The notes under the pieces were generated by a model that searched no databases, was not told the DNA's origin, and worked only from the letters and a program-made list of their open reading frames with translations. Both the position numbers and the translations under genes were made by a program. Below are positions 1 to 22,440 of a stretch of 38,397 bases of DNA, piece after piece. Every line of letters begins with the position of its first letter. Within the stretch, counting starts at the first letter, position 1. This stretch comes from a virus, in the IMG/VR virus record IMGVR_UViG_3300019477_000079, positions 1-38,397 of that record; one strand, written 5' to 3'.

Positions 1-127
1 GACAAGTACGATATTGAGCCTGGTAATCTTAACGGACTCAAAGAGGCAATCGCAAAAGATGGCGAACTGCTAGAAGAAAGAGCAGAAAGAGAAGGCTTAT
101 CAGTTGAACAGTACAAGTACCAGAAGA
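1..127. repeat. 127-bp terminal direct repeat, copy 1 (assembly overlap of a circular or terminally redundant genome)
   Basis: Bases 1-127 are identical base for base to 38271-38397. The unique genome length is therefore 38270 bp. Confidence 0.95.
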
Positions 128-5080: not shown

Positions 5081-6676
5081 ATGCTACTCAAGGAAATACA
5101 GCCAAAGATAAATGGCAAGCAGTCGGTATTACAGTTCAAAGGATATAACGCAAATGCTGTAATAGATGACGGTGAGATGAGGGATATGTACAACTTGTCA
5201 TCAGATAAGTACCCTGTACTCTCTCAAAGAGCGCCAAGAAATATTATAGATATGCCAGTGCAACATCCAAGAGATATCATCGTAAAAAACAATGTGCCAT
5301 ACATCATAGATAGATATGAGGTAGATGGAGAGATAAGAACATTTATCAAATACTCTAAAGGTGGCACGGATTACCAAAAGCGAATAAACAACATCATGCC
5401 TAAAACTATGGTGGCACATAATAATAAAATCTGCATATGGCCAGATAAGGTGTATCTAGATATTACAGATAACACCGTAAAGCACATGGACGCATCAGTA
5501 AAGGCTACGGCAACAATTAAGCCAGGCAGCATATATCTAGTTGGTGCAGATTTATCTGAATTCTCTGTTGGTGATGCTGTTGAGATATCCGGATGCAAAA
5601 AGCAACCAGGTAATAACACAGTGATCGTGATCAAGAATATAGAAGGTAGCACGATTACCACTTATGAGAATTCATTTAGAATGCCTAGTGATGATGTGAC
5701 TAAAGAGTCATATGTTGAAGAGGAAGTAAAGCTCACACGAGAGATTCCAGATCTTGATTACGTTATGGAAAGCAATAATAGATTGTGGGGTTGTAGGAGC
5801 GAAGACAACACAATTTATGCTAGTAAGCTAGGAGATCCGCTTAATTGGAACTATTTCCAGTCGCTAGCAAACGATTCATACGCACTAGAGGTTGGTTCAG
5901 ATGGTGAATTTACAGGATGCGCTGCATATCCTACGCACCTAATCTTCTTCAAAGAACATCATATGCATAAAGTGTTCGGAAGTATGCCAAGTCAATATCA
6001 GCTATACAGCACTGAGTGTTTCGGAATAAGAAAAGGCTCTGATAAATCGGCTGTAATCGTGAATGGTGTATTGTACTATCATTCATTAACAGGCGTAATG
6101 GCTTATGATGGCGGCACATATCCGGTAATGATATCCGAAGCGTTCGGAGATTATCAGTTCAAATCAGCTGTCGGCGGCAGCAATGGTAAGAAATATTATA
6201 TTTCGATGCTAAATGAAAGCGAAAATAAGTACAATATCTTCACTTACGATATACTTCGCAGACTATGGCACAAGGAAGATGAAACAAAAGTAACAGCTTT
6301 TGCCAATGTGAATAACGAGCTTATATACATAGCAGACGGTAATATCTGGACTACTACAGGAAAACGTCCGGAAGATGATATTAAGTGGTTTGCTGTATTC
6401 GGACCATTTGATGAATTCGTAGAGAATATGAAGTCTTATAAGAAAATAAATATGAGACTAGATATGCAGCCAGGAGCACAGTTAAGGATAAGCACTCAGA
6501 ACAGCAGTGGTGAGTGGGAACCTATATATGAGTGCGAAACGGAGCGAGGAAAAACGCTTAGCGTACCAATTATCCCTAACAGGCAAGCAAAGTTCTCTAT
6601 AAAGATTGAAGGCGTGGGAAGGACAGATATTGAATCGCTTACAAGATACTATAGAGGTAGGAGTGATAGACCATGA
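5081..6676 (+). CDS. large virion structural protein (tail hub/nozzle candidate)
   Basis: 531 aa, RBS TAGGAGG. The composition is beta-rich with repeated aromatic-Gly motifs (LYYHSLTGVMAYDGG, KKYYISM, LIYIADGNIWT) that suggest a propeller-like fold. It sits in the structural operon. Confidence 0.55.
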   Translation: MLLKEIQPKINGKQSVLQFKGYNANAVIDDGEMRDMYNLSSDKYPVLSQRAPRNIIDMPVQHPRDIIVKNNVPYIIDRYEVDGEIRTFIKYSKGGTDYQKRINNIMPKTMVAHNNKICIWPDKVYLDITDNTVKHMDASVKATATIKPGSIYLVGADLSEFSVGDAVEISGCKKQPGNNTVIVIKNIEGSTITTYENSFRMPSDDVTKESYVEEEVKLTREIPDLDYVMESNNRLWGCRSEDNTIYASKLGDPLNWNYFQSLANDSYALEVGSDGEFTGCAAYPTHLIFFKEHHMHKVFGSMPSQYQLYSTECFGIRKGSDKSAVIVNGVLYYHSLTGVMAYDGGTYPVMISEAFGDYQFKSAVGGSNGKKYYISMLNESENKYNIFTYDILRRLWHKEDETKVTAFANVNNELIYIADGNIWTTTGKRPEDDIKWFAVFGPFDEFVENMKSYKKINMRLDMQPGAQLRISTQNSSGEWEPIYECETERGKTLSVPIIPNRQAKFSIKIEGVGRTDIESLTRYYRGRSDRP

Positions 6677-7743
6677 TAACTGTACCAAACAGAACAGATA
6701 TGTCTGACGAAAGCCTTGCACTCAGGACGATAGATGAAAACTTGCGAAAACTTGCAGATGAAGTACTCATGGAAATCATGAACGTATCAAAAGAGCCAAG
6801 CAAGAAAAAAGAAATATCTGAAAACAAGGTAAATAAAGAAGCACCTAGAGTCCATATTGCTTATGCAAGTAGCGGAGATGGCGCAGTGGGGTTCAGCACC
6901 ACGGATAGCACCGGAAGAACATATATAGGAATCTACACAGATTTTAAAGATATAGCTAGCGCAGATCCTAAAACGTATAAGTGGACGAAAGTCAAAGGCG
7001 ATAATGGTGTAAGCGTAAGCTCGTATACTAGGTGGTATTATTTAGCAGTAGAAACTCCAGAGAAACCAGCACTTAAAGTTCCGCCTAGACCGTGGACTAT
7101 AACAGAACCTAGCTACATAGAAGGGAGCCCAAACAATCTATACTATGTAGATCAGAGTATTTTCTCAGATGGAAGCTTTTACTACTCAGATGTTCAGGTG
7201 TCAAGCTCATATGCTGCAGCCAAAAATGCATTTATCAAGACTTTAGAAAATCATCAAAAGACATTAAAGCAACTTGAAGACTTAAGCAGACAGACGAAAA
7301 AAGAAATCGCAGATGCAGCGAACAGCATATCCAGAAAGATTAAGACAGAGTATTACTCGTCGGCCGATATGGACGATAAAATTGCTAATATCGAATCGCA
7401 AATAACACAAACAGATAACGCTGTAAATGTTAAGTTTAGCGAAGCTCTCAAAAACATAAACGATCTAAAATTTGATTCGGATAAAAAGTATAGCGAGATA
7501 GTAAGTACTATAAGGCTAGATAAGAACGGAATATCTATAGGCAAAAGCGGTAACAGAATATCCATGAATCTAGATAATGACAAGCTGAGGTTCATGCAAG
7601 AAGGAATAGAAGTTGCGTATATGAGCGATAACAAACTGTATATACAAAATGCGGAGGTGCTCAGCAGTATAAAGCTTGGCAAATTTGCGTTCATGCCGGA
7701 TACCGAAACAGGCAGTTTATCATTTGGAAAGGTGGAAGATTAA
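6673..7743 (+). CDS. tail fibre / host-specificity-type minor structural protein
   Basis: 356 aa with an ATGA start/stop overlap. The motif RVHIAYASSGDGAVGFSTTDSTGRTYIGIYTDF...YKWTKVKGDNG recurs in Gram-positive phage minor structural/fibre proteins. A coiled-coil middle is followed by a beta-rich C-terminus. Confidence 0.6.
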   Translation: MITVPNRTDMSDESLALRTIDENLRKLADEVLMEIMNVSKEPSKKKEISENKVNKEAPRVHIAYASSGDGAVGFSTTDSTGRTYIGIYTDFKDIASADPKTYKWTKVKGDNGVSVSSYTRWYYLAVETPEKPALKVPPRPWTITEPSYIEGSPNNLYYVDQSIFSDGSFYYSDVQVSSSYAAAKNAFIKTLENHQKTLKQLEDLSRQTKKEIADAANSISRKIKTEYYSSADMDDKIANIESQITQTDNAVNVKFSEALKNINDLKFDSDKKYSEIVSTIRLDKNGISIGKSGNRISMNLDNDKLRFMQEGIEVAYMSDNKLYIQNAEVLSSIKLGKFAFMPDTETGSLSFGKVED

Positions 7744-9050
7744 TGGCAAATACATGCATATATGAATTCATCCCGGTAGATAAAAAATACAGTTCCCTTG
7801 AAGAGGGATACGGATGCATTATACCGGGGTACTCAACGGTAACACCAGTGATTCGCGGCACGCTTACAGATAAAATGAAGCCTTACTATTTGTATGCGTC
7901 GACCTACGACGAAGAGGTAAGGCTGAAAACAGTTACTATTTGTGAAAACCAAAAAGTAAACGTGAACGAATTAAAGAGCCCAAATTCGTACTCAATAATC
8001 GAAAATGGAGATGAATTAAATTATAGATTCGAGCTCCCAGATGTACTAGTGCCGACTCACTATTTTTCGCCAGTATATCATGAATATGAACCGCTTATAG
8101 CATACATCAGCGCTGCAAACGAAAAGAATGCATTAAACGAAAGTGGTAAATGCATTACAAAATTGGCACTTTATGGCGAACCGAGAATCACAGTAGTTAA
8201 GAATCCTTACGAGTCAAACGCAGATGGAACGGCGAAAAAAGGCGGAAGCTATCGAACTGCACAGGTTCAAGTTGGATGGTTCCCTATAAACGTGAGTGGC
8301 GCGGCGAAGAAAGTAGATAAAATAACCTTAAGCGGAAAAATCAAAAGGTCGAATGAATCAGCTTACAAACCTACCAACATCACCACAAAACTAATCAAAA
8401 CAGATACTGATGCATCTGGGTGGGTTACATCAACATATGATGTAACTGTGGCAGTTAATAAATCGTATACACATAGCTTCGCACTATATGCATCAGATGG
8501 ACTAGGTGGTGATGGAGTTAGCCACATGTTTTTCCAATCCGCCTTTAAGTTGTTTGATTTTAGAGTAACCGGAAGAGGATTCGCGCTCGGCAAACCATCC
8601 GAAAGAGATGCGTTTGAGTGCGATTTAGACCTGGTTGTTACAAAAGGTGCAGAATTTAAAAGAGAAACAGTATTCAGAGGATCTGTTAGGGGACATAGAA
8701 ACGGAGTAGTGATTACCAATATAGAAATTGGAAAGAACTCCGTGCTAATGGATTCAACTAGATTTCCCGGCGCAAGATATATATTTGAACTAGCACTACC
8801 TAGAGATATGGTGGGAGAGCAAGTAGATGAGAGATGGCTACCAGAGCTGTATCCTGAAAAGATTTGTTCAGAGATATACCCTATATGTGCACTAGAAACG
8901 AATACAGAGTCGGGACTATATGAGCAATCAGCTAATGATATCTACCTCAAGGTATACCTAACGAGCGAGCCTAAAGAAGATATCAGAATCAATTGTAAGT
9001 TTACAAAATCTATGAGCCTGGAGGCTCAGAACGCTGCAGGAGGTAATTAA
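7743..9050 (+). CDS. virion structural protein (tail/baseplate-like, function unknown)
   Basis: 435 aa, translationally coupled (TAATG) on both sides, within the structural operon. No motif recognised. Confidence 0.55.
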   Translation: MANTCIYEFIPVDKKYSSLEEGYGCIIPGYSTVTPVIRGTLTDKMKPYYLYASTYDEEVRLKTVTICENQKVNVNELKSPNSYSIIENGDELNYRFELPDVLVPTHYFSPVYHEYEPLIAYISAANEKNALNESGKCITKLALYGEPRITVVKNPYESNADGTAKKGGSYRTAQVQVGWFPINVSGAAKKVDKITLSGKIKRSNESAYKPTNITTKLIKTDTDASGWVTSTYDVTVAVNKSYTHSFALYASDGLGGDGVSHMFFQSAFKLFDFRVTGRGFALGKPSERDAFECDLDLVVTKGAEFKRETVFRGSVRGHRNGVVITNIEIGKNSVLMDSTRFPGARYIFELALPRDMVGEQVDERWLPELYPEKICSEIYPICALETNTESGLYEQSANDIYLKVYLTSEPKEDIRINCKFTKSMSLEAQNAAGGN

Positions 9051-9358
9051 TGAGCGTAGGTTCAGTACATGGAATAACAACAGAAGTAAAAACTGTAACG
9101 AGAGATGTAGTTGTGGCCACAAATGGGGGAGTGGCAATGAGGTCTGTATCACAATCAGAATTAGGAATACCTTCGGATAGCAAAGTGATACTTGCACAAG
9201 TTCATCCAAAACACAGAGCAGGAGTAGACGATGTATGGACTGCAGTATTTTACGGGTATTCTTGGGATGATCAAAAAAGAAGTGTTGAAATTGCGGTAAA
9301 TGGAAGATTAACAGGTTTACAGAAACAAGAATTTGAAGTAAATGTTTTATATTACTAG
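9050..9358 (+). CDS. small structural-module protein, function unknown
   Basis: 102 aa with a TAATG overlap onto the upstream gene. Beta-rich. Confidence 0.55.
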   Translation: MSVGSVHGITTEVKTVTRDVVVATNGGVAMRSVSQSELGIPSDSKVILAQVHPKHRAGVDDVWTAVFYGYSWDDQKRSVEIAVNGRLTGLQKQEFEVNVLYY

Positions 9359-9367
9359 GAGGAATTT

Positions 9368-9663
9368 ATGATAGGTATAGTACATGGGGGGGGGGTAGAA
9401 CAAAAACCCAAGAACGCGTTACACTGGGCAGTGAGTGGACTGCGCCACATAATGGAACGCTTGTATGCGCTGGACGAGCACAAGCTGACTCGGCATATAT
9501 TTTTATAAAAGACAAAAATATTAATGCATATATCGGAATGCACACTATAGAGCTCAACCAACACTATGGTACGATAACAGTACCTGTAGTAGCAGGGCAT
9601 GTGTACGAAGTTAGACGAGGGTCCTGGCAAGTTCAAAGCGATTTATTCATATACGAATCGTAA
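9368..9663 (+). CDS. tail-module small protein interrupted by a G10 tract (98 aa if read with a -1 shift or with G11/G8)
   Basis: AGGAGG at 9357-9362 and ATG at 9368. As written, the frame stops at 9506-9508 (46 aa). The -1 frame is open from before the G-run to TAA 9661-9663 and has no start codon of its own before 9538. Confidence 0.6.
9386..9395 (+). repeat. homopolymer G10
   Basis: Ten consecutive G counted directly (9386-9395), inside codons 7-10 of the gene starting at 9368. Confidence 0.95.
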
Positions 9664-9703
9664 TTTTAATAATCGACTACCATGCTGTAGTAGGATGTAC
9701 TGG

Positions 9704-9738
9704 AAACGTCATCAACTGTTAAGTTGGTGGCGTTTTCT
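9704..9738 (+). terminator. intrinsic terminator after the tail/fibre block
   Basis: AAACGTCATCAAC (9704-9716) pairs with GTTGGTGGCGTTT (9723-9735), including two G-U pairs, around the loop TGTTAA. A T-rich tail follows. Confidence 0.6.
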
Positions 9739-9811
9739 GCATTATGAAGAGAGCGAAAACGCACAAGCAAAAGTGTAATATGTAATAAAAAAAGAAAACC
9801 AGGAGGAAGGC

Positions 9812-12800
9812 ATGGCAAATAAAGACCCATTCAAAAGTGCGTATAGTGAACAGATTGCGGCACTCGTTCAAAAGGCGCAGGACAACACGGCTAATTTTAA
9901 ATATGATCCTATGACAGATGTGTCATATCAGGCACTAGCTAAAGAATATGCAAGGCTTGGAGATAGAGCAAATGAAAACACTCTAGCCAATCAAGCAGCA
10001 TTAACTGGTGGTAGGGCGAGCACTTATGCAGTAAGCGCAGCAGCACAGGCACAGAATCAGTACAATCAAGCCTTAACAGATAAGATACCAGAGCTTGAGC
10101 GCTTGGCATATGACAGATTTAACGCAGATAGAAACTACGGCTTAAATCTACTTGGAACTATGAAGTCACTAGATGACTCAGCATATAGTAGATTTACTGA
10201 TCAGAGGAACTTTAATTATCAGCAGGGAAGAGACAATGTCGCTGATCAACACTGGGATAAAACATTTGATTACCAGAAGCTGCGAGACAGTGTTGCTGAT
10301 TCACATTGGGATAAAAATTTTGATTACCAAAAACAAAGAGATAATGTATCAGACTCACACTGGGAAAGAAACTTTAATTATCAGCAGGGAAGAGACAGCG
10401 TGAGCGACTCACACTGGGAAAGAGAGTATCAGTTAAAAAAAGACTCAGCCTCTAGAGCAGGTCGGCGCTCTGGGGGCGGTAGACACAGCCGAAAAGGAAG
10501 AAGAGGAAGAGGTGGAAGTTATCAAGAGCAATCAACACAGGTTGTATCATATGTTCCTAGTGTTGCTGCTCAAATTGCCCAGAATGCAGCGAAAGGGATT
10601 TTAACAGGTAAGGCTAAAAAAGGTAAGTCGGTTAAATCTCAAACGTATAAAAAGGCTGCCAGAATGGGATACGCTCCTATAGCGTTTAGAAGAAATACAC
10701 CTGCAGAGGCAAGAGCAGCTGCAAGAAAAGCAGTAAAGAGAATCATCTACGGAGATAATAAGCATTATGTAAGCAAAGATCCTGTAAGGCGTGCGAACGA
10801 TATATTCAACAATACACAGATGGCAGGTATAAATAATAATTCGGATAGACGCGCGCTGTATGCTCTTAAAGGTTTAGTTGAATCTAAAAAATCTGACCTG
10901 CTTAACGCAGCGTGGACTGTTACCTCAACACCTACACTCGATCCTAAGAGTATGCACCAGGATCTACAGAGATACAGCGAACTAGGATATATCAAGAATG
11001 GAATGCTAGACGCCGACAAACTGTCAAAAGATGCTAGAGATGCATTTAGTGGATTTTATAAATACGTTGAGAAAACAAGACAAAAAGCTGAAGCGCTTAA
11101 CTACATGGCGAAAGAGGCAGGTATTTATAAAACAGAACTGCAGTATGATACCAAAGCCGGCAAGTTCAAGAGAAAGCTATACTTAAAAGATAAAAACGGT
11201 AACGAACCAAGAGAGGGCGTAATTGAAAAGCCTAGCGCTGGTCAGAAATTCGCTATAGATATTGCACAAGGAACGCTAGGCTTCCTTGCTGATTTAGCTG
11301 TAGGCAAATTTACAGGCGTAGGAATACTGCCTGTAATGGGTGTTAACGCATTCGGACAAGGGGCAGGAGACGCGAGGGCTGCAGGCGCAGGTATATATTC
11401 CCAATGGGGCGCTGGATTAACAAACGCAGGAATCAATGTTGGAACTGAAAAAATGTGGAGTACATCAAATATCATGAGAAACTCTACAGGTAGAGGACTA
11501 TTAGATAATGGTGCTGAAAAGTTTGCTAACAAAATGGCTGCTAGATTCGCAAAGGGAACTGCGGCAGATGAGATAAGATACAAAGCAATTAAGCTTGGTC
11601 TAGCTGCATCAACCGAAGGTGTAGAAGAATTTATGAATGCAATTCTCCAGCCAATATCTGATAGATTTTACGACCCAGATGCGTTTAAGAAAATAGCAGA
11701 GAATCCTACAGGCTACCTTGCGGATGCTGTTTATCAGGGCATAGTAGGTACAGCAATAGGCGGTATTGTTGGGGGTCCTAGCGGAGTAAATATGAATATT
11801 GAACTGTCTGCAGAAGATAAAGAAAAAATACTGCAGGCAGGTCTTGCTATGTCTGAAAAGAGCAGCGCAAACAACTTTGCTAGGTCGATTGATAAAAATA
11901 GACTTAAGGGCGGTAAAGTACTAAATAATGCTATCCTAGATTTAAAACATAAAATTGAATCCGGAAGAGAACTAACAGAGCATGATCAGATGCTTTTAAG
12001 CGCAGCAAAGAAATCGCGCATAAGAGGCGCAGAGAATGTATCCGGTAGTTTTATTATCAGATCCGAAGAAGGACTAAACACTGAATATGATAGAGAAAAG
12101 GCGTCCGTACTTTTAACTCAAAAAGTTGCGAACAGAGAAAAAGAAGTTAGGAAGTACTTACAGGATGCAGATACTCCTAAAAAGACTATTGATGAACTGT
12201 CATTCCCAGTAGCCAGGATATTAGAGGGAACAGGCAGCAGTGCAGATGTAGAAAATGTACTATTCACAGTAGATAACAATCCAGCTCTTGAACTAATTCA
12301 GAACGAAACAACGCAGGATTTAAACGTAGGAATGCTGCCTAGAATGAACAATGGAATGATAATGGGCGGTGCCAGAGAAACGCAGAGCTTCAAGAAAGAG
12401 CTAAACTCTTTTATGGAAGCAAGATACGAGAGCAACGTTGAAGAAATATTGCCGAAAGCAAAGGACGCAGCAAAAAAAGAAATGCTGGCATCTATTGGCA
12501 TGAAAACAAATCCAGAAATAGAAAAGCTGTTCGATGAAGGCGCAAAGAATGTGAAGGAAGGCGAAGAGTTTATAAACTATGCACACGCATTTAATTACTT
12601 CTACGATTCTGGAAGAAGAGGATTAGACTACAAGAATCTTGACAAGGCTATATTCCAAAGTGAGCTAGTACCTGCAGATATCCGTAAAAAGATATACGAG
12701 ATAGGAAAAGCTGAGAGAGAAGATAATAACATCATTACAAACAAGTCAAAGCTACCGATAGGATTTAAAGCCGGAAGAGTAACACTTGGTGAGAACGTGA

Positions 12801-15800
12801 GCATGAGCAACTCAATGACTAACGCATACAGAACACTCGCTAAGTCTTTTGGTGTTGAAATATCTCTTGAAGAGAATATCAAAGACTCAGAAGGTAACGA
12901 AGTAAACGGCTATTACAAGAATGGAACTATCCACATTTCCATGAAATCAGATAGCCCTGTTGTTAATGTTCTAAAACATGAGGTAACACACCATATCCAG
13001 GTTAATTCACCTAGGCAGTATGCAGCATTTAAAAAGTATGTGCTTGATGAATTCTATAACTCAAATCTTGCTGAGTATGAAAATAAACTCAACAAGTATA
13101 TGAATGACTACAAGGACATATCACGTGCCGAAGCAGAAGATGAATTGCTAGCGGATGCTACAGATGTTTTTTGGAAGGGCGATGCTGATGCAGAAGCAGC
13201 AGTTAAAACACTTGTAGAAAAAAATAGAAGCCTTGGAGAAACAATCCTCAAGGCTATTAAGTCTACAGTAGATAAGCTAAACACATTAAGCAAGAATGTT
13301 ATAAACGCATTAAAAGGGGAATACCGCGGTAAGTGGCTTGAAGAACTAGGAATCCTTGAAAAAGCACAAGAGATGTGGACTAATGCTTTGATGAATCCTG
13401 AAATAGATAAATTTGAAGAGGCTGTTAATAATAATGATGAAATCAAATTCATGTATAAAGGTAAGGATTCAGAGGGTAGAGATGTTTTCTCAATTTCTAG
13501 CAAAACGAAAAAGCTCACAAAAAAAGAAAAGCGAACAGAATTAACGGAGAGATTTAAAAACGGAGAAGTATTAACTGTTGAATTCGATAACGGCAAAGGT
13601 AGAAAGTATACAGCTAAGCCACATGAGGATTTTGCAGGAAAGAATTTTTACGGTGACAAACAAACAAAATCGATTAATGCATTTAATAAAAAGGTGAATC
13701 TATTCTATGAAGGGGATTTATCGAAACTGTTACAGAATTCGGAATACATAAGACCTGGAGATGAAAAGAAGGAACATAAAAATGTAATCAAATGGGAGTA
13801 CTACAAAAAAGAAATTGTAATAGGAGAAACGCCGTATAAATTATTGATTAATGTGCAAAACCGAACTGATGGGGATTTTATTTACAACATTAAATTCGAA
13901 AAAATAAAAAAAGACCAACATTGGCAAGCTATCAATGAAGATAGTAAAAATAACGCCCATGTTGGTATTGATAGTGTAAATCTATCACAAAACAACGAAG
14001 AGGTCAAGGAAAAATACCAGAGAAAAAATAGTATCTTCGATATCCCTAACAATCAGCAAGCTGATTCTAACACTATCAGGCAGCTTAACAAGAAAATCGA
14101 TGCACTGATTCTAAATCAGACTAAAACAAAGGGAACCATACCTAAAAGGTCATCTGTTGTTAGTTACCTAAAAGAACTAATAACAGAGGTCGGTTCAGAT
14201 GTAAAAGCAGAAGATTTACGTATTGATTATCACAATCTTTATAAAGCAGCTAAATCAGGTGATGATGCAACGAAAGAGAGGTTATTAAACGAAATAACAA
14301 GAGAAATTGTTAAAAATACCTATGAGACTAATCGCGTATCTCCAGAAATAAGGGATATACAGAGATATCTCAAAAATATGACTATCTCTATCGATGAAGA
14401 TTTAGAAACAGAAATCAAGAATAGATACGGCACATTTGGAAAGTTTAAAGATTATATCGATGGTGCTTTCAAAATAAAACTTAATAAGAACATCGATAGA
14501 ATGGAATATGCCGTTCCTGTTGATGACATGCTGTCTGAAATGAGCGAGCTGTTCGGAGATACTATCAAGGTTGACGGACGAAGTCTAGACGATGTTACAG
14601 ACTTTGTTACAGCTCTAGCTACAATTGCTGAGTATGCATCGGTAAAAGATAATAAAGTTTATCTTTTTGATGGCGGTGCAAACCTAACTCAGTACACCGA
14701 AAAAGAAATTGCTGAATACGAAGATGAGCTAATAAAGGATGTTAAAGCCAATCTAGAAGCTAGCCTTGGCGAGATTAAGCCTATCGTTACTTATGCAGAT
14801 AAGCAAGAGGCAAGAATTAGTAAGCTAAAAGCTAGCATGAAAAGAAGTGCTATGGATAAGCCAGAGCAAGCAAAGTCAAAGAAGCTTATAAACAAGCTGA
14901 TTAATGACACAGGCTCAAAGTTGCCGGCAGAAGATGCTACGAGAATCTATGAAGAGGTTTGGTCGGCCGTGCACCAGGCAACACCGAACGCTAGTGCAGC
15001 ATATTCTGCAGCTGCGAGGTTATCAAATGCACTCCTTAACTCGAACGAGAATAATATAAAGGAAAACCTTCAAACAAAGAAGCAAGTAATAGATCTACTC
15101 AGTGTAGGTAAAATTTATATTTCTCCAGAATTGGCAAAGAAACTAAATTACCAGGAGTTAAAGGCTAGATACGGCCATGCGTTAAGATTTACAACAGATA
15201 TCAATAGCGAGCATACAATGCCTGCTGAACTGGTATATGACTTCTTCCAAAATAAACTAGGTGAGAAATACCCTGAACTATTCGCATCAGATGCATCAGA
15301 TGCAGAAGAGGCTGTAAAGAACCTGTGTAACGCTGTAGATATGGTTGAAACATCTGCAGAGACAGACGGTCTAATTAATGGTGAATATAAAAACGTTGCT
15401 AGTGATATCACGGAATTAATACTAGATAGCGCAATTTCTATGAAGCCAGAAATGACCTATGCAGATAAACAGCAGGAGAAACTTAAAGCTGCTGTAAAGG
15501 AAGCAAGAAACAAAATAAAAGAAAGGGAGACTATAAAGAGGCAGAAAGCAGAAAAGAAACATGAAGAGGAAATAGCAGAAAAAGACAAGGCTATAGAAGA
15601 ACTCGAAAGCGCTATCAAAGAAGAAAGAGAGTCAGTAAACGAGCTAAAGCGAGATTTAAGAAAAGAGCGCAGCGAACTGAATAGAAAGAGCAAGGCGATT
15701 AATAGCATTAAGTGGTACTCTAACAAATTATCAAACAAGCTGTTAAAACCTACCAATACGCAGTTCATGCCGGAAGAGTTTAGGAAATCTATCGCAAAGG

Positions 15801-18800
15801 TTCTATCTGAGATGGATTTTTCTACAGATCGTGGCGACGCGTTCTATGAAACGCACGGATATAACAAGACCTATGAAAACTTCATGGAGTTAAAAAACGA
15901 ATATCGCAAGGTGCTTGAAGAAAAGAACGACGGTGATAGTACGTTTAGTTTTGTTGAGGACGAAGATTTTATGAATCAAATTGATTCAGTTCTTGAGGCT
16001 TTAAAAGAATCAAGGCTTGTCGATATGGACGCCGATACAATCGAAAGCGTTAGGGATGTAATTAGAGGTTTAGACGGAATTATAAATAAGCATAACGATA
16101 TGCTTAAGTATGACCAGTACAAAACAATCAGCGATACAGGAAATGCGGTAATTAGTGAACTCAGCAAAAAAGCAGAAAAGAATCGCTATGCGGGCGGAGC
16201 TAGTGCTGTATCCAAGTTTATATTCTCGAGAAATATTAATCCGGCAGATAGATTTGCTGTACTGGGTGGCACGCTCAACAAACTGTTTAAAGAGATAACA
16301 ATCGGCTTTGATGATCACGCAATGAATGTTAAAGGCGCTCAAAATGAATTTCAGAGAATTCAAGAGGCTGTAGGCGAAGATACATTTAATAATATCTGGG
16401 AGGATTCAAAAGTAGAATCCTTCAAGCTGGAATCTGGCAAAACCTTAAACCTAACTCATGGGCAGATGGTAACACTATTCCTTCTCAGCGAAAGAAATCA
16501 GGCGCTAGAACACATTCTTACTGGTGGTATTCAGACTGCAGAAGTTAAACCGAAGAAACTCGGCAAAAACACTGTACTTAGAAAAAGCTCCGTGCAGAGG
16601 GAAAAGATAACACGTAGTGATATTATAAACATCGTTAAGAGCTTATCTCCGGAAGAAATAAAGTGTGCAAAGATGATTCAGCATTACCTTAATACAACAG
16701 TCTCCGACTGGGGAAATGAAGTGTCCATGAAAGTATGGGGATACAACAAGTTTACAGAAGAAAAGTATTTCCCTATCAAGATTGCAAGAGAAACTGTAGA
16801 TGCCAATGTTGAAGAGGCGGCGGTAACTAAAATTATCAATCCAGGATTTGCAAAGAAAACAAAACCATCAGCAAAGAATGCGGTTGTGCTAGATAACGTA
16901 TTAAGTGTCGCATCAAATCATATAAGCGCTATGAGTGCGTATCAGGCACTATCTATGCCACTACAAGACCTAGAAAATGTATGGAACTATAGAGGATACG
17001 GAGAAGATGGCGTAATTAAAGGCTCTGTTAGAGAGGCAATCGAACGTGCATATGGTAGAGAGGCTAACGAATACATAGAGAAATTCTTGAAGGATGTAAA
17101 CGGCAATATCGCAAAAAGCGAGATGCCTATCACAACCAAGATTATAGGAACAGCAAAGCGTGCTGCAATTGCAGCCAACGGAAGAGTAGCTATGCAGCAG
17201 CCTATGTCAATCGTTAGAGCGTCCGCCGTGATAAATCCAAAATATCTAGCTAGGAGCAAGTATTCGCGTGATGCGGTAAAAGAGATGCAGCAACACTCAG
17301 GTGTCGCTGTGTGGAAAGATCTAGGCTACTATTCAACAGACGTAGGACCAAGTCTTACCAATGCTATGATTAACAAGGAAAATAAACTAGAGAAAGTAAC
17401 ACTTGATATGTACGGTTTCCTTGATAATATGACATGGGGTAAAATCTGGGGTGCTTGTAAGCTCAAAGTTGAAGACACAATGAACATCCATGAAGGAGAC
17501 GAAGGATACTGGCAAGCAGTAAATGAACAGTTTAGAGAAGTTGTGTATAGAACTCAGGTATTCGACTCTGTACTATCAAGATCTGAATTAATGAGGCAAA
17601 AGGATGTAGGATCATCAGTATTAACAGCATTCTTATCAGAACCAACTAAAACGCTGTCGCTGTTCATTACTAATCAGCAAATTGCAAAGCAAACGTATGA
17701 TGAGGGCAATGTAGCAGAAGCTAGAAAGCTAGTTGCAAAACAGTTCGGTTGGTTCATATCGTCAGCGGCAGCAATGGCGGTTATGAAATCTTTTTATGAT
17801 GCTGCAATAAGACACATAGCGGACGATGATAAAAAGGACAAGAATTTTGTTGAGCGATTCCTCGATGCGCTTCTAGGAGAGAACAAGCTCCATACAGACG
17901 GAAATCTATTTGGGGAACTAAATCCTATAGCTATGCTACCTGTAGGAAAGGATATCCAGTCGGCACTACAAGGATATACACCATCAAGACTAGATATGTC
18001 TCTATTTGTAAAAATTAGCGACGCATACAAGGCGTGTGTAGATCCTAAGAATAGTTTAGTTACAAAGCTTGAAAAGGTTGCTAATGCAGCAGGCGTATTC
18101 TTTGGACTTCCTGTAGATGTAGTTTATAGGGATTTAAAGGGCTCATTTGCATATATAGCATCAATACACGATTTTTTCACCGGCGCAAATACAAAACAAG
18201 ATTTGCTGATGGACTTCGCGAAAATCGAGAAAACATACAAGGGCAATAAAGGTTACTTTAAAAGCGTTGCGACCGACTCCGAAAAGTACGATAGCGAAAC
18301 GAGAGAAAAGGCAGCTAAATACATTCTTGAAAACGATAAAGAATACACAAGAGAGAAAATTGATAAAGAAACGATTAATCGCATTAAGAGAAACCATAAT
18401 GATGAAATGGATAACTTTATCAAGAAAGGCAAGAATGAAGAGGCTGAAAAACTTGCAAAGAGTCTTGCAGCGAGAAATAGCATGTTGGATGCAGAGGAGT
18501 ATTTGCAGCAGCGTATTAATAAGGTGAAGACTGATCAATTGAAGAAGATTGAAAATGCCCTCATGAAAGGTAACGTTGAAGAGGCTGAAAAGTTTGCAAA
18601 CAAATTTAACAAGATGAATATCAATGTTCAAGGCGAGCAGTACACCTCTGATGTGGCTATGGAAAAATCAAAAGAATGGATACGAAAGGAATATCTCAAA
18701 GGGGTTATTGATGGTTTAAAAGCTCAAAATAACTTAAAGGTTGAAAAACAACTCGCAAAGATAGAACGCATAGACCCAACAAATACTGATTTTCAGCGTG

Positions 18801-19015
18801 AAGAGGTGCTATATAGTGCAAAACAAAGCATGAGATATAGCTACTATCCATATATCAACAAAGCACTTGCTCGCGGAGATGTTGAAACAGCAAGAGTATA
18901 TGCGCAGAAAATAGAAGCTCTCTATCCAGGAGACCGCAAGTATACCGCAGATGCTGTCATTAAGAGGAGCTATAAATACGCTACAAGAAACAAAAGAAAG
19001 AAGAAAAGAAGGTAG
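9812..19015 (+). CDS. giant 3067-aa virion-associated protein (candidate ejection/polyvalent or tape-measure-like protein)
   Basis: Uninterrupted 9204-nt ORF with RBS AGGAGGAAGG. It lies between the tail genes and the lysis cassette and is bounded by terminators. It contains 18-aa tandem repeats, an RG-rich patch, glycine-rich hydrophobic segments, HEVTH, and long coiled coils. Confidence 0.6.
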   Translation: MANKDPFKSAYSEQIAALVQKAQDNTANFKYDPMTDVSYQALAKEYARLGDRANENTLANQAALTGGRASTYAVSAAAQAQNQYNQALTDKIPELERLAYDRFNADRNYGLNLLGTMKSLDDSAYSRFTDQRNFNYQQGRDNVADQHWDKTFDYQKLRDSVADSHWDKNFDYQKQRDNVSDSHWERNFNYQQGRDSVSDSHWEREYQLKKDSASRAGRRSGGGRHSRKGRRGRGGSYQEQSTQVVSYVPSVAAQIAQNAAKGILTGKAKKGKSVKSQTYKKAARMGYAPIAFRRNTPAEARAAARKAVKRIIYGDNKHYVSKDPVRRANDIFNNTQMAGINNNSDRRALYALKGLVESKKSDLLNAAWTVTSTPTLDPKSMHQDLQRYSELGYIKNGMLDADKLSKDARDAFSGFYKYVEKTRQKAEALNYMAKEAGIYKTELQYDTKAGKFKRKLYLKDKNGNEPREGVIEKPSAGQKFAIDIAQGTLGFLADLAVGKFTGVGILPVMGVNAFGQGAGDARAAGAGIYSQWGAGLTNAGINVGTEKMWSTSNIMRNSTGRGLLDNGAEKFANKMAARFAKGTAADEIRYKAIKLGLAASTEGVEEFMNAILQPISDRFYDPDAFKKIAENPTGYLADAVYQGIVGTAIGGIVGGPSGVNMNIELSAEDKEKILQAGLAMSEKSSANNFARSIDKNRLKGGKVLNNAILDLKHKIESGRELTEHDQMLLSAAKKSRIRGAENVSGSFIIRSEEGLNTEYDREKASVLLTQKVANREKEVRKYLQDADTPKKTIDELSFPVARILEGTGSSADVENVLFTVDNNPALELIQNETTQDLNVGMLPRMNNGMIMGGARETQSFKKELNSFMEARYESNVEEILPKAKDAAKKEMLASIGMKTNPEIEKLFDEGAKNVKEGEEFINYAHAFNYFYDSGRRGLDYKNLDKAIFQSELVPADIRKKIYEIGKAEREDNNIITNKSKLPIGFKAGRVTLGENVSMSNSMTNAYRTLAKSFGVEISLEENIKDSEGNEVNGYYKNGTIHISMKSDSPVVNVLKHEVTHHIQVNSPRQYAAFKKYVLDEFYNSNLAEYENKLNKYMNDYKDISRAEAEDELLADATDVFWKGDADAEAAVKTLVEKNRSLGETILKAIKSTVDKLNTLSKNVINALKGEYRGKWLEELGILEKAQEMWTNALMNPEIDKFEEAVNNNDEIKFMYKGKDSEGRDVFSISSKTKKLTKKEKRTELTERFKNGEVLTVEFDNGKGRKYTAKPHEDFAGKNFYGDKQTKSINAFNKKVNLFYEGDLSKLLQNSEYIRPGDEKKEHKNVIKWEYYKKEIVIGETPYKLLINVQNRTDGDFIYNIKFEKIKKDQHWQAINEDSKNNAHVGIDSVNLSQNNEEVKEKYQRKNSIFDIPNNQQADSNTIRQLNKKIDALILNQTKTKGTIPKRSSVVSYLKELITEVGSDVKAEDLRIDYHNLYKAAKSGDDATKERLLNEITREIVKNTYETNRVSPEIRDIQRYLKNMTISIDEDLETEIKNRYGTFGKFKDYIDGAFKIKLNKNIDRMEYAVPVDDMLSEMSELFGDTIKVDGRSLDDVTDFVTALATIAEYASVKDNKVYLFDGGANLTQYTEKEIAEYEDELIKDVKANLEASLGEIKPIVTYADKQEARISKLKASMKRSAMDKPEQAKSKKLINKLINDTGSKLPAEDATRIYEEVWSAVHQATPNASAAYSAAARLSNALLNSNENNIKENLQTKKQVIDLLSVGKIYISPELAKKLNYQELKARYGHALRFTTDINSEHTMPAELVYDFFQNKLGEKYPELFASDASDAEEAVKNLCNAVDMVETSAETDGLINGEYKNVASDITELILDSAISMKPEMTYADKQQEKLKAAVKEARNKIKERETIKRQKAEKKHEEEIAEKDKAIEELESAIKEERESVNELKRDLRKERSELNRKSKAINSIKWYSNKLSNKLLKPTNTQFMPEEFRKSIAKVLSEMDFSTDRGDAFYETHGYNKTYENFMELKNEYRKVLEEKNDGDSTFSFVEDEDFMNQIDSVLEALKESRLVDMDADTIESVRDVIRGLDGIINKHNDMLKYDQYKTISDTGNAVISELSKKAEKNRYAGGASAVSKFIFSRNINPADRFAVLGGTLNKLFKEITIGFDDHAMNVKGAQNEFQRIQEAVGEDTFNNIWEDSKVESFKLESGKTLNLTHGQMVTLFLLSERNQALEHILTGGIQTAEVKPKKLGKNTVLRKSSVQREKITRSDIINIVKSLSPEEIKCAKMIQHYLNTTVSDWGNEVSMKVWGYNKFTEEKYFPIKIARETVDANVEEAAVTKIINPGFAKKTKPSAKNAVVLDNVLSVASNHISAMSAYQALSMPLQDLENVWNYRGYGEDGVIKGSVREAIERAYGREANEYIEKFLKDVNGNIAKSEMPITTKIIGTAKRAAIAANGRVAMQQPMSIVRASAVINPKYLARSKYSRDAVKEMQQHSGVAVWKDLGYYSTDVGPSLTNAMINKENKLEKVTLDMYGFLDNMTWGKIWGACKLKVEDTMNIHEGDEGYWQAVNEQFREVVYRTQVFDSVLSRSELMRQKDVGSSVLTAFLSEPTKTLSLFITNQQIAKQTYDEGNVAEARKLVAKQFGWFISSAAAMAVMKSFYDAAIRHIADDDKKDKNFVERFLDALLGENKLHTDGNLFGELNPIAMLPVGKDIQSALQGYTPSRLDMSLFVKISDAYKACVDPKNSLVTKLEKVANAAGVFFGLPVDVVYRDLKGSFAYIASIHDFFTGANTKQDLLMDFAKIEKTYKGNKGYFKSVATDSEKYDSETREKAAKYILENDKEYTREKIDKETINRIKRNHNDEMDNFIKKGKNEEAEKLAKSLAARNSMLDAEEYLQQRINKVKTDQLKKIENALMKGNVEEAEKFANKFNKMNINVQGEQYTSDVAMEKSKEWIRKEYLKGVIDGLKAQNNLKVEKQLAKIERIDPTNTDFQREEVLYSAKQSMRYSYYPYINKALARGDVETARVYAQKIEALYPGDRKYTADAVIKRSYKYATRNKRKKKRR
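10199..10430 (+). repeat. in-frame 54-nt tandem repeat (3 full units plus 2 partial) inside the giant ORF
   Basis: Units start at 10244, 10298 and 10352, with a partial unit at 10406 and a leading partial unit at 10199. They encode D(Q/S)HW(D/E)(K/R)xF(D/N)YQxxRD(N/S)V(A/S). Confidence 0.9.
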
Positions 19016-21563: not shown

Positions 21564-22109
21564 ATGTTAAAAGCTATAGATGTTGCTAATTTCTTTATTT
21601 ATCTATTAAGCGATAAAGAAGATGAAGAAAATGATTTAACAAATATGAAGCTTAATAAGCTTACATATTATGCACAAGGCCAGTTCCTAAAAACAAACGG
21701 AAAACCTTTATTCTCAGAAGGTATAGAGGCATGGATACACGGTCCAGTAGTCCCTTCGGTTTATTGCGAATTTAAAGAAAACAAAAATAATCCTATAAAA
21801 GACTTTAGCGGTGATTTTGATATATCTAAATACACTGACGAAGAAAAAGAAGTAATGCTCGATGTAGCTCTTGATAAAGGCAGGTACAGTGCAACCACGT
21901 TAAGAAACATGACGCACAAACTAGGGGGACCATGGGCACAATGCTATAACGGAAATCTACACGTAGCCATACCGAACGAACTAATAAAGGAGTATTTCTG
22001 CAAGCATGATGTTTTAGAACACTTAGAGTTAGATTTATCGGATTGCGAGGTAATCGGGCATAGAAATGATGATGGATATCTAGTTCTGCCTAAAGAATAT
22101 GACTGTTAA
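21564..22109 (+). CDS. Panacea-domain (DUF4065, SocA/GepA-like) putative antitoxin
   Basis: 181 aa. The hallmark pattern is IDVANFFIYL...LTNMKLNKLTYYAQGQFL...GKPLFSEGIEAWIHGPVVPSVYCEFK. It overlaps the downstream toxin-like gene by 11 nt. Confidence 0.85.
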   Translation: MLKAIDVANFFIYLLSDKEDEENDLTNMKLNKLTYYAQGQFLKTNGKPLFSEGIEAWIHGPVVPSVYCEFKENKNNPIKDFSGDFDISKYTDEEKEVMLDVALDKGRYSATTLRNMTHKLGGPWAQCYNGNLHVAIPNELIKEYFCKHDVLEHLELDLSDCEVIGHRNDDGYLVLPKEYDC

Positions 22110-22413
22110 AAAATGGGAAATTCACTGGGCACACGTTGTGTTTGAAGATTCTGACGAGGTAAAGCGAAGACCGGTACTGATTATAGACGAGTCAAATGCG
22201 GTTATTATTAGTCTTAAAATGACAGGAACTGATAGAGGAGACAATGTGCGCGAATATCGTATTGAAAAGTGGCAGGAAGCCGGGCTTTCCAAGCCAACGT
22301 CTGTTAGGCTAGATAAAATCCTGCACTTACAAAAAACTGACCTTGACGGGAAAATCGGAAGGCTTCAAGAAATAGACATAATTAAAATCAGATTCAGAAT
22401 GAGTAAAAGATAA
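22099..22413 (+). CDS. MazF/PemK-like toxin-fold protein
   Basis: 104 aa. The N-terminal pattern WEIHWAHVVFEDSDEVKRRPVLIID and the C-terminal SVRLDKILHLQKTDLDGKIGRL match the PemK/MazF SH3-like barrel signature by eye. Confidence 0.75.
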   Translation: MTVKKWEIHWAHVVFEDSDEVKRRPVLIIDESNAVIISLKMTGTDRGDNVREYRIEKWQEAGLSKPTSVRLDKILHLQKTDLDGKIGRLQEIDIIKIRFRMSKR

Positions 22414-22414
22414 T

Positions 22415-22440
22415 AAACGCACGGATTTATCCGTGCGTTT
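22415..22440. terminator. bidirectional hairpin terminator at the TA / integrase junction
   Basis: AAACGCACGGA (22415-22425) pairs perfectly with TCCGTGCGTTT (22430-22440) around the loop TTTA. The integrase stop codon (22440-22442) lies in its edge. Confidence 0.8.

What the first reader, a model, noticed from the sequence alone, without database searches (positions are those of the whole stretch)
9357..9663. G10 homopolymer splits a well-initiated tail-module gene into two frames (phase switch, -1 frameshift, or homopolymer error)
AGGAGG (9357-9362) and ATG 9368 open a frame that crosses ten consecutive G (9386-9395). It then stops after only 46 codons (TAA 9506-9508). The -1 frame is open from upstream of the run to TAA 9661-9663 but has no start codon before ATG 9538. 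Its translation looks like a genuine beta-rich domain: RTKTQERVTLGSEWTAPHNGTLVCAGRAQADSAYIFIKDKNINAYIGMHTIELNQHYGTITVPVVAGHVYEVRRGSWQVQSDLFIYES. A tract of G11 or G8, a -1 ribosomal slip on G-GGG-GGG, or RNA polymerase slippage would yield one 98-aa protein. It is the last gene of the fibre block and is followed by a terminator, so on/off switching here would change virion surface composition.
Basis: partly seen in the sequence, partly recalled or inferred. Interest (0 to 1): 0.65.

Follow-up and report, generated by a model that had tools for sequence, protein, structure and literature searches.

The report
Poly-G on/off switch in phage fibre-tip gene
A run of ten G's near the start of a small tail-fibre-tip gene of a temperate phage of the oral bacterium Mogibacterium is a real, heritable, fast-mutating length switch: about half of related genomes have it in frame and half out of frame, and this genome carries it switched off, much like the poly-G switches already known in Campylobacter phages.

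Summary
G10 lies at 9386-9395, seven codons after a well-initiated ATG, and splits a 97-codon gene. It is the only G or C run of 6 or more in the 38.3-kb circular temperate phage genome.

In 30 related assemblies found without regard to tract length, plus the window, the tract is G8 (16, in frame, 97 aa), G9 (12), G10, G7 or G6 (one each). Look-ups aimed at OFF alleles found G10 in 8 independent samples and G7 in 5.

Every OFF allele keeps the rest of the ORF intact, and pN/pS is 0.22. Tract length changed at least 14 times on the tree. All seven pairs with identical flanks have the same length, and an A8 control run is invariant in 12 of 12 contigs.

This points to slipped-strand phase variation rather than consensus error, pseudogenisation or obligatory recoding.

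The product is a stand-alone jelly-roll knob, homologous to the C-terminal domains of siphovirus tail proteins. In a second phage type the neighbouring small gene carries its own polymorphic start-proximal poly-G (G7/G8).

Verdict: a new member of a known kind, the phage poly-G contingency locus. The mechanism is well supported by comparative data. The effect on host range is inferred.

The parts
9357..9362 (+). Shine-Dalgarno AGGAGG, 5 nt before the start codon; it overlaps the stop (TAG 9356-9358) of the upstream gene
   Evidence: AGGAGG is kept in all relatives
9368..9370 (+). ATG start of the knob gene (N-terminus MIGIVHGGG)
9386..9395 (+). Poly-G tract, G10 here (OFF). Relatives carry G6, G7, G8 (ON), G9 and G10. 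It encodes the Gly-Gly-Gly of a disordered N-terminal linker
9368..9508 (+). OFF-state reading frame of the G10 allele (46 aa plus stop). The out-of-frame part is not conserved: the equivalent ORF is 11-60 aa in relatives
9397..9663 (+). Body of the knob domain (residues R10-S97 of the 97-aa ON protein, plus TAA), in the -1 frame relative to the ATG in this allele. It is under purifying selection
   Evidence: pN/pS 0.22; pLDDT 91.8, eight beta strands
9694..9743 (+). Terminator-like hairpin (16-bp core stem 9702-9717 / 9722-9737) that ends in UUUUCUGC, closing the tail-fibre operon
   Evidence: z = -4.08
9050..9358 (+). Upstream partner gene (102 aa, small beta sandwich). It shares the N-terminal motif M-x-x-G-x-V-H-G with the knob gene and is the most diverse spot of the region. 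Its homologue in a second phage type carries its own polymorphic poly-G
6673..9050 (+). Preceding tail-fibre / host-specificity genes (356 aa with tail-fibre PHROG matches; 435 aa with no family match)

Best explanation
The G run is a hypermutable homopolymer (contingency locus) at codons 7-9 of a small accessory tail-fibre-tip gene in a temperate phage of oral Mogibacterium. Slipped-strand mispairing during DNA replication adds or removes G's. G8 (and, by arithmetic, G5 or G11) gives the 97-aa jelly-roll knob protein. G9 or G6 puts TAG directly after Gly-Gly-Gly, leaving a 9-aa peptide. G10 or G7 gives a short, non-conserved peptide, 46 aa in this window. This window is therefore a heritable OFF variant, one G away from ON (G11) or two away (G8). 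The tract sits in a disordered Gly linker at the extreme 5' end of the last gene before a terminator. OFF alleles therefore make almost nothing, have no polar effect, and remain revertible.

Shown here: the tract length polymorphism, its heritability, its recurrence, the integrity of the rest of the ORF, purifying selection on that ORF, and its homology to tail-protein C-terminal domains.

Inferred: the knob docks on the fibre through its N-terminal motif, and its presence or absence alters receptor recognition or adsorption, so that each phage or prophage population hedges between two virion types.
For: Tract lengths:
- The unbiased sample is 22 IMG/VR loci, 8 metagenome loci and the window. 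It gives G8 x16, G9 x12, and G10, G7 and G6 x1 each.
- Look-ups using the OFF-state products found G10 in 8 independent samples from several assemblers. One is a Logan contig 100% identical to the window over 3.1 kb. G7 was found in 5 samples.

The gene is live:
- All 40 or more alleles have an intact 97-codon ORF once the tract is normalised (one lacks only the last residue).
- pN/pS is 0.22 with third-position bias.

The variation is heritable and frequent:
- There are at least 14 tract-length changes and at least 7 ON/OFF changes on an NJ tree of 40 loci.
- All 7 identical-flank pairs agree in length. Shuffled labels need a mean of 22 changes.
- L001 (G8) and L004 (G9) share identical local flanks.

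Controls:
- The A6/A7 runs in coding sequence are invariant across 8 kb.
- The genome's longest other run, A8, is A8 in 12 of 12 contigs.

The tract looks maintained:
- It is the only G/C run of 6 or more in the genome, and it uses the rarest Gly codon.
- It is kept in L022, although the gene body there is swapped to 67-71% nucleotide identity.
- In a second phage type the neighbouring small gene has its own polymorphic tract (G7/G8) in a near-identical 25-nt context.
- A third phage type encodes the same Gly-Gly-Gly as GGT GGA GGC.

Protein:
- The AF2 model has pLDDT 91.8 and is all-beta; residues 1-10 are disordered.
- Homologous domains end siphovirus tail proteins of the Prophage_tail, Sipho_Gp37 and DUF859 families.
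- The fold matches tail-fibre, C1q-like and RBP knobs.

Precedent: phase-variable RBPs in Campylobacter Fletchervirus phages (Sorensen 2021, as described in PMC8713573) and contingency loci in T-even phages (PMC12633550).
Against: - No raw reads were available. Heterogeneity within a population, mutation rate and reversibility were not measured.
- The OFF-allele look-ups are biased by design, so only the first 31 loci can be used for frequencies.
- Some contigs (BNJ*) come from error-prone long reads. One shows an extra frameshift.
- The tree ignores recombination.
- No experiment links the protein to the virion or to host range. The sequence has no Pfam or PHROG family, and the PDB fold matches are weak (TM 0.4-0.5).
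- Because the phage is temperate, OFF alleles could simply be tolerated in the prophage state without any adaptive value.
Confidence: 0.72

Rival explanations
1. Neutral mutational hotspot. The poly-G is an accident of sequence in a dispensable gene. OFF alleles are tolerated, especially during lysogeny, and the switching has no selected function.
For: About half of genomes are OFF and are still assembled as complete circular phages, so the gene is dispensable for persistence. The phage is temperate, with an integrase fragment and a CI-like repressor, and it sits inside Mogibacterium contigs of 0.5-1.8 Mb. Late genes are therefore silent much of the time.
Against: A single synonymous change would remove the hazard, yet the tract persists. 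It uses the rarest Gly codon twice or more, and it is the only G/C run of 6 or more in the genome. It survives a swap of the gene body in L022. The neighbouring gene of another phage type has a parallel tract, while a third type encodes GGG non-slippery. No OFF allele has accumulated a second lesion, and pN/pS is 0.22.
Confidence: 0.15
2. Recoding. The fused protein is normally made from out-of-frame alleles by ribosomal frameshifting or RNA polymerase slippage: -1 on G GGG GGG in G10, or +1 at GGG-TAG in G9.
For: A long G run is formally a slippery X XXY YYZ site and resembles a Shine-Dalgarno sequence. In G9 alleles a TAG stop directly follows the tract, an arrangement that recalls the prfB +1 site (recalled from memory). 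Some leaky expression from OFF alleles is therefore plausible.
Against: G8 alleles are simply in frame in about half of genomes. G9 and G10 alleles need slips of opposite sign. There is no stimulatory structure downstream (MFE z = -0.12) and no Rfam element. The orthologue in L035/L038 has no tract at all and is a plain ORF. The zero-frame extension is not conserved, at 11-60 aa.
Confidence: 0.06
3. Artefact. The true tract is G8 or G11 and the G10 is a homopolymer miscount in sequencing or assembly.
For: Homopolymers are error-prone on some platforms. Reads could not be inspected. The nanopore-derived contigs in the set do show an unrelated frameshift.
Against: The window carries a 127-nt terminal overlap, typical of a short-read de Bruijn assembly (this interpretation is from my own knowledge). 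An independent Logan assembly of SRR5637667 is identical and also has G10. Seven further samples have G10 in strains 94.6-98% identical to the window. All 7 identical-flank pairs from different assemblies agree in length, and tract length carries phylogenetic signal. A8 and the coding A6/A7 runs never vary.
Confidence: 0.04
4. Pseudogene. The gene is decaying in this lineage.
For: The reading frame is broken in this window and in roughly half of relatives.
Against: The frame is disrupted only at the tract. No allele has any other stop or indel in the 97 codons, apart from one that lacks only the final residue. There is purifying selection. ON and OFF alleles are interleaved on the tree.
Confidence: 0.03

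Closest known systems
Phase-variable receptor-binding proteins of Campylobacter jejuni Fletchervirus phages (hypermutable polyG tracts; Sorensen et al. 2021, Cell Rep 35:109214, as summarised in PMC8713573)
   Same: There is a poly-G tract inside a tail or receptor-binding gene of a phage. Length changes switch the protein on or off, giving phenotypically mixed virion populations. An accessory RBP is switched rather than an essential one.
   Different: There is no sequence relationship (tblastn against 50,697 phage records found nothing). The host here is a Gram-positive oral anaerobe (Mogibacterium, Clostridia). The phage is temperate, not lytic. The switched product is a 97-aa stand-alone knob, not a full-length RBP. 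The evidence here is natural polymorphism across metagenomes, not experiment.
Phage contingency loci in T2/T4 and other phages (Gomez, Barrick and Waters 2025, bioRxiv, PMC12633550)
   Same: Single-base repeats of 6 or more in phage ORFs undergo reversible +/-1 frameshifts by polymerase slippage, which is interpreted as bet-hedging.
   Different: Those are mostly A runs, at frequencies around 1e-4 to 1e-3 in reads, and spread through all gene classes. Here a single G8-G10 tract is the only long G/C run in the genome. OFF alleles reach consensus in about half of natural populations, and the tract sits in the host-recognition module.
Bacterial N-terminal polyG phase-variable genes (for example C. 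jejuni cj1421/cj1422; PMC8713573, PMC9311878)
   Same: G7-G11 tracts lie close to the 5' end of the ORF. Expression is ON or OFF by frame, and the rest of the gene stays intact.
   Different: Those loci are chromosomal surface-modification genes of a Gram-negative bacterium. This one is phage-borne.
Other phage tropism switches: Mu G-segment inversion, Bordetella BPP-1 DGR (cited in PMC12823448), and separate tip adhesins such as T2-type gp38 (from memory)
   Same: The distal tail-fibre specificity element is varied at high frequency. A small separate protein at the fibre tip can determine host range.
   Different: The mechanism here is homopolymer slippage, not site-specific inversion or retro-mutagenesis. 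It gives presence or absence rather than a change of sequence.

Membership tests
Simple-sequence-repeat contingency locus (phase variation by slipped-strand mispairing) | Homopolymer or short repeat inside the ORF (or promoter), long enough to slip (about 7 or more for G/C) | tested here: met
   G10 at 9386-9395, at codons 7-9. It is the only G/C run of 6 or more in the genome.
Simple-sequence-repeat contingency locus (phase variation by slipped-strand mispairing) | Repeat number differs between closely related genomes and toggles the reading frame | tested here: met
   G6, G7, G8, G9 and G10 among more than 40 loci; only G8 is in frame. L001 and L004 share identical local flanks but carry G8 and G9.
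Simple-sequence-repeat contingency locus (phase variation by slipped-strand mispairing) | OFF alleles are otherwise intact, so the switch is reversible and not decay | tested here: met
   The 97-codon ORF is intact in every allele after normalising the tract (one lacks only the last residue). pN/pS is 0.22.
Simple-sequence-repeat contingency locus (phase variation by slipped-strand mispairing) | Mutation rate at the tract is far above background, and mixed lengths occur within one population | tested here: inconclusive
   Indirect only. There are at least 14 length changes on a tree whose tips differ by a few percent, while A8 and A6/A7 runs never change. Read-level heterogeneity could not be examined.
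Simple-sequence-repeat contingency locus (phase variation by slipped-strand mispairing) | Switching changes a phenotype under fluctuating selection | not testable with these tools
   Only inferred, from homology to tail-protein C-terminal domains.
Programmed -1 ribosomal frameshift site | Slippery heptamer X XXY YYZ in the zero frame | tested here: met
   G GGG GGG lies within the run. The match is formal only.
Programmed -1 ribosomal frameshift site | Stimulatory hairpin or pseudoknot a few nucleotides downstream | tested here: not met
   The fold of 9396-9480 is no better than shuffles (z = -0.12). There is no Rfam match.
Programmed -1 ribosomal frameshift site | The two-frame arrangement is conserved in relatives | tested here: not met
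   About half of relatives are in frame (G8). G9 alleles would need the opposite shift. L035/L038 lack the tract entirely.
Phage tail-fibre / RBP C-terminal knob domain (jelly roll, C1q/TNF/CBM-like) | Homologous domain found at the distal C-terminus of tail-tip or fibre proteins | tested here: met
   phmmer hits lie at the C-termini of proteins with Prophage_tail, Sipho_Gp37 or DUF859 N-terminal regions (E from 1.8e-9 to 5.6e-4).
Phage tail-fibre / RBP C-terminal knob domain (jelly roll, C1q/TNF/CBM-like) | Beta-sandwich / jelly-roll fold similar to known knobs | tested here: met
   The AF2 model has pLDDT 91.8. BFVD matches include a tail fibre protein (TMq 0.71), a C1q-like protein and an RBP. 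PDB matches (CBM6, C1q, TNF-family) are weak, at TM 0.4-0.5.
Phage tail-fibre / RBP C-terminal knob domain (jelly roll, C1q/TNF/CBM-like) | Present in the virion and binds a host receptor | not testable with these tools
   No proteomic or binding data.
Campylobacter Fletchervirus phase-variable RBP family | Sequence homology to those RBPs | tested here: not met
   tblastn and blastn against the phage collection gave no relevant match. The resemblance is one of mechanism only.

The most novel reading that the evidence does not exclude
The switch may be a portable module. A start-proximal cassette, made of the N-terminal docking motif M-x-x-G-x-V-H-G-G-G encoded through a poly-G, is shared by two adjacent small tail-tip genes and sits in one or the other in different phage types. 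In the window's P22-portal-type phage it is in the knob gene; in a Dit/Sipho_Gp37-type siphophage it is in the partner gene. The tip genes of oral Clostridia phages would then be phase-varied combinatorially. In the second type the G7 state ends in an ATGA stop-start overlap. That could re-initiate an N-terminally truncated isoform, which would make it a long/short switch rather than ON/OFF.
Probability: 0.25. Interest if true: 0.65.

Novelty: new member of a known kind. Interest (0 to 1): 0.5.

Why it matters
Phase variation through homopolymers is a classic bacterial strategy. It has only recently been shown in phages: Campylobacter phages in 2021 and T-even contingency loci in 2025.

This locus would extend it to a temperate phage of a Gram-positive oral commensal. 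It also offers something the laboratory studies lack: natural-population evidence that ON and OFF alleles coexist at roughly equal frequency across many human samples.

It is directly testable. Public read sets exist, the ON/OFF arithmetic is simple, and the product is a 97-aa domain with a confident model.

There is a practical lesson too. Annotation pipelines will mis-call such genes as two fragments or as pseudogenes, and metagenomic polishing may wrongly correct them.

Tried and rejected
- blastn (distant mode) of 8800-9900 and tblastn of the fused protein against 50,697 phage records found no relative.
- PHROGs and Pfam have no family for the 97-aa protein or for the 102-aa partner.
- The search for related loci with the diverse alignment A2 failed because it had no conserved stretch. 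The scan with P0008 found nothing.
It was repeated without that row.
- The Sorensen 2021 Cell Reports paper is not held. Its content is cited through PMC8713573, and its reference through PMC12823448.
- The Rfam scan of 9000-9900 gave only a chance-level hit.
- I suspected a split integrase as a sign of an error-prone assembly. This was rejected: the 120-aa ORF next to it looks like a separate, hydrophobic (probably membrane) protein, and the integrase is C-terminally truncated, not frameshifted.
- I considered that the 46-aa zero-frame product might be functional. This was rejected because its length varies from 11 to 60 aa among relatives.

Full report
**1. The observation**

- AGGAGG is at 9357-9362 and ATG at 9368. 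The codons read ATG ATA GGT ATA GTA CAT, followed by ten G (9386-9395).
- The zero frame ends at TAA 9506-9508 after 46 codons.
- The -1 frame is open through the run to TAA 9661-9663, and its first possible start is ATG 9538.
- One detail needs correcting. G11 would give 98 aa, but G8 gives 97 aa.

The run is an outlier.
- It is the only G or C run of 6 or more in the 38,397-base window. An i.i.d. model expects about four G runs of 6 or more, and 0.004-0.01 runs of 10 or more.
- GGG is the rarest glycine codon in the window's genes (6.9%). None of the 41 other Gly-Gly pairs is GGG-GGG.
- A strong hairpin follows the gene (9694-9743, z = -4.1). The simple terminator scan missed it.

**2. What the window is**

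- The window has a 127-nt terminal overlap, leaving 38,270 unique bases. It is therefore a complete, circularly assembled genome. From my own knowledge, an overlap of that length is typical of a short-read de Bruijn assembly at k = 127.
- It encodes a major capsid protein, a P22-like portal, a large terminase, tail-fibre-like proteins, a 3,067-aa protein, a holin, a CHAP-SH3 endolysin, a CI-like S24 repressor, an integrase fragment and two DNA methyltransferases.
- The same gene occurs inside bacterial contigs of 0.37-1.8 Mb. One is a 767-kb contig of a MAG labelled uncultured Mogibacterium sp. (taxonomy).
- This is therefore a temperate phage of an oral Clostridia genus.

**3. Relatives settle the main question**

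A peptide-seeded scan of IMG/VR gave 22 loci. A DNA pattern that allowed tracts of G5 or longer gave 8 metagenome loci. Neither search depended on tract length.

Tract lengths in these 30 loci plus the window:

| Length | Loci | Consequence |
|---|---|---|
| G8 | 16 | in frame, 97 aa |
| G9 | 12 | TAG directly after GGG GGG GGG, 9-aa peptide |
| G10 | 1 (the window) | out of frame |
| G7 | 1 | out of frame |
| G6 | 1 | out of frame |

The in-frame 97-aa protein is also what the protein database holds: P0001 and P0002, whose clusters have 181 and 23 member sequences.

I then looked up the products a gene caller would report for OFF alleles. This search is deliberately biased and was not used for frequencies.
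- G10 was found in 8 independent samples from different projects and assemblers, in strains 94.6-100% identical to the window. One is a Logan contig of run SRR5637667 that is 100% identical over 3.1 kb.
- G7 was found in 5 samples.

**4. Error, decay or switch?**

- *The gene is live.* After setting the tract to G8, every allele has an uninterrupted 97-codon ORF, except one that lacks only the final residue. Variable sites fall 29/24/56 by codon position, and pooled pN/pS is 0.22.
- *Only this homopolymer varies.* Fourteen A/T runs of 6-7 in 8 kb of shared flank are constant in length; one intergenic A7/A6 site is the exception. The longest other run in the genome, A8 in the terminase gene, is A8 in 12 of 12 related contigs.
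- *Tract length is heritable but labile.* All seven pairs of loci with identical 2.1-kb flanks, from different assemblies, have the same length. On a neighbour-joining tree of 40 loci, Fitch parsimony needs at least 14 length changes and at least 7 ON/OFF changes. Shuffled labels need 22 ± 1.6, with a minimum of 17. Random miscounting would not carry phylogenetic signal, and decay would not interleave ON and OFF alleles. L001 (G8) and L004 (G9) share identical local flanks.
- *The out-of-frame products are not conserved.* The G10-frame ORF is 11, 17, 19, 46 or 60 aa in different strains.

Together these results favour slipped-strand length variation at a real hypermutable tract.

**5. Recoding**

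- The orthologue in a more distant phage (L034/L035/L038) reads ATG ATA GGT AAA GTG CAT GGA AAT AGG. It has no tract and gives a plain 97-aa ORF.
- In-frame G8 is the commonest state.
- G9 and G10 would need shifts of opposite sign.
- There is no downstream structure (z = -0.12) and no Rfam element.
- Obligatory frameshifting is therefore not the expression mode. Leaky slippage on OFF alleles cannot be excluded. The GGG-TAG junction of G9 alleles recalls +1 shift sites (recalled from memory).

**6. What the protein is**

- It has no Pfam or PHROG family.
- An exhaustive phmmer search found 20 relatives. Some are stand-alone proteins of about 100-117 aa. Others are the C-terminal 90 or so residues of longer proteins whose N-terminal regions are Prophage_tail, Sipho_Gp37 or DUF859, all siphovirus tail-tip proteins.
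- The AlphaFold model is confident (pLDDT 91.8). It is an eight-stranded beta sandwich. Only residues 1-10, including the Gly-Gly-Gly from the tract, are disordered.
- It resembles the C-terminal domains of phage tail fibres (TMq 0.71), C1q-like proteins and RBPs in BFVD. It resembles CBM6, C1q and TNF jelly rolls in the PDB only weakly (TM 0.4-0.5).
- It is therefore a stand-alone fibre-tip knob. Placing the tract in a flexible Gly linker means that in-frame length changes (G5, G8, G11) cost only a glycine.

**7. A second switch next door**

- The upstream 102-aa gene (9050-9358) is the most diverse stretch of the region (pi about 0.30). It shares the N-terminal motif M-x-x-G-x-V-H-G with the knob gene. 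It models as another small beta sandwich (pLDDT 83), with only weak tail-fibre and lectin matches.
- In the L035/L038 phage type (Dit, Sipho_Gp37, amidase endolysin) the homologue of this gene starts ATG GCA ATG GGT AGA GTG CAT G(n) TAG AAG. That context is nearly identical to the window's GGT ATA GTA CAT G(n) TAG AAC.
- L034/L035 have G7, which stops at a TGA overlapping the next ATG (ATGA). L038-L040 have G8, giving one 105-aa ORF. That ORF is exactly protein P0029, which I had predicted before finding it.
- A third phage type encodes the same Gly-Gly-Gly as GGT GGA GGC and has no run.
- In L022 the knob gene body is replaced by a version with 67-71% nucleotide identity, while the start and tract are unchanged and the flanks are 95-99% identical.
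- A poly-G that recurs, is retained and has a non-slippery counterpart argues that the tract is maintained rather than accidental. This is inference, not proof.

**8. Mechanism proposed**

- Shown: the length polymorphism, its heritability, its recurrence, ORF integrity, purifying selection, and homology and fold.
- Inferred: slippage during replication, by the host replisome in the prophage or by whichever polymerase replicates the phage, toggles the knob gene. ON virions carry an extra tip domain, docked through its N-terminal motif. OFF virions lack it, which changes receptor use or adsorption. Each population then contains both types.
- The switch sits at the 5' end of the last gene before a terminator, so OFF states are cheap and non-polar.

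**9. Comparison with what is known**

- The closest system is the phase-variable RBPs of Campylobacter Fletchervirus phages (Sorensen 2021, described in PMC8713573 and cited in PMC12823448).
- The general concept is phage contingency loci (PMC12633550).
- The mechanism is the same. There is no sequence homology to the Campylobacter RBPs.
- The host is Gram-positive and oral, the phage is temperate, the switched unit is a 97-aa stand-alone knob, and the evidence is natural polymorphism.
- I file it as a new member of a known kind.

**10. Limits**

- No reads, rates or phenotypes were available.
- Some contigs derive from error-prone long reads.
- The tree ignores recombination.
- Host assignment rests on one labelled MAG and on large contigs.
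- Interest is 0.5. This is a clean, testable natural example that extends a recently recognised phenomenon, not a new principle.

Noticed in passing
L035 2636-2952 (also L034, L038-L040): In a different phage type (Dit / Sipho_Gp37 tail module) the homologue of the window's upstream 102-aa gene has its own start-proximal poly-G. It is G7 in L034/L035, where the stop TGA overlaps the next ATG as ATGA. It is G8 in L038-L040, which gives one 105-aa ORF equal to P0029. The knob gene of that phage has no tract.
   Followed up: yes
window 9050-9358: The 102-aa gene just upstream of the knob gene is the most diverse stretch of the 4-kb region (pi about 0.30, against 0.03-0.10 around it). It has several allelic types and shares the N-terminal motif M-x-x-G-x-V-H-G with the knob gene. 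It models as a small beta sandwich with weak tail-fibre and lectin matches.
   Followed up: partly
L022 (IMGVR_UViG_3300006564_000285) versus window 9396-9663: The knob gene body is swapped for a version with 67-71% nucleotide identity (67% amino-acid identity). The flanks are 95-99% identical, and the start codon region and poly-G are unchanged, so a recombination boundary lies right at the tract.
   Followed up: partly
window 9787-9793: An intergenic A7 run ends 18 nt before the ATG of the 3,067-aa gene and just upstream of its AGGAGG. It is A7 in 7 related loci and A6 in 15. It was the only other homopolymer found to vary in length, and it could alter promoter or RBS spacing.
   Followed up: no
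window 9812-19015: A single 3,067-aa ORF follows the fibre block. It has an HEVTH zincin-like motif at residue 1056 and repetitive, Lys/Glu-rich, coiled-coil-like regions. It has the same length in related contigs. Its role was not examined; it may be an ejection or internal virion protein, or tape-measure-like.
   Followed up: no
window 21564-23165: The tyrosine integrase ORF (22440-23165, minus strand, 241 aa) covers only the first part of the catalytic domain (profile positions 22-75 of 172). It abuts a SocA/Panacea-domain gene (21564-22109) and a 104-aa gene (22099-22413) on the other strand. The integrase may have been truncated by insertion of a toxin-antitoxin-like pair.
   Followed up: partly
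window 1-127 and 38271-38397: An exact 127-nt terminal direct repeat. The window is a circularly assembled complete genome of 38,270 bp. A Logan contig of SRR5637667 (38,271 bp) is identical over the 3.1 kb compared.
   Followed up: yes
window 27893-29853: Adjacent C5-cytosine and D12-class N6-adenine DNA methyltransferase genes, plausibly for anti-restriction.
   Followed up: no
BFVD entry A0A8S5MXR1 (Podoviridae sp. ctlSr7): The best structural match is a 66-aa uncharacterised protein, 65% identical over 57 columns to the knob. It may be a truncated gene call from an OFF or otherwise frame-broken allele in a deposited virome genome.
   Followed up: no
L027 / L031 (BNJT contig, Mogibacterium MAG): This long-read-derived contig has G8, plus an additional frameshift near the 3' end of the knob gene (…WQAQKRFVHIRI…). 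That is probably a long-read indel error, so the BNJ* contigs were treated as unreliable for tract length.
   Followed up: partly
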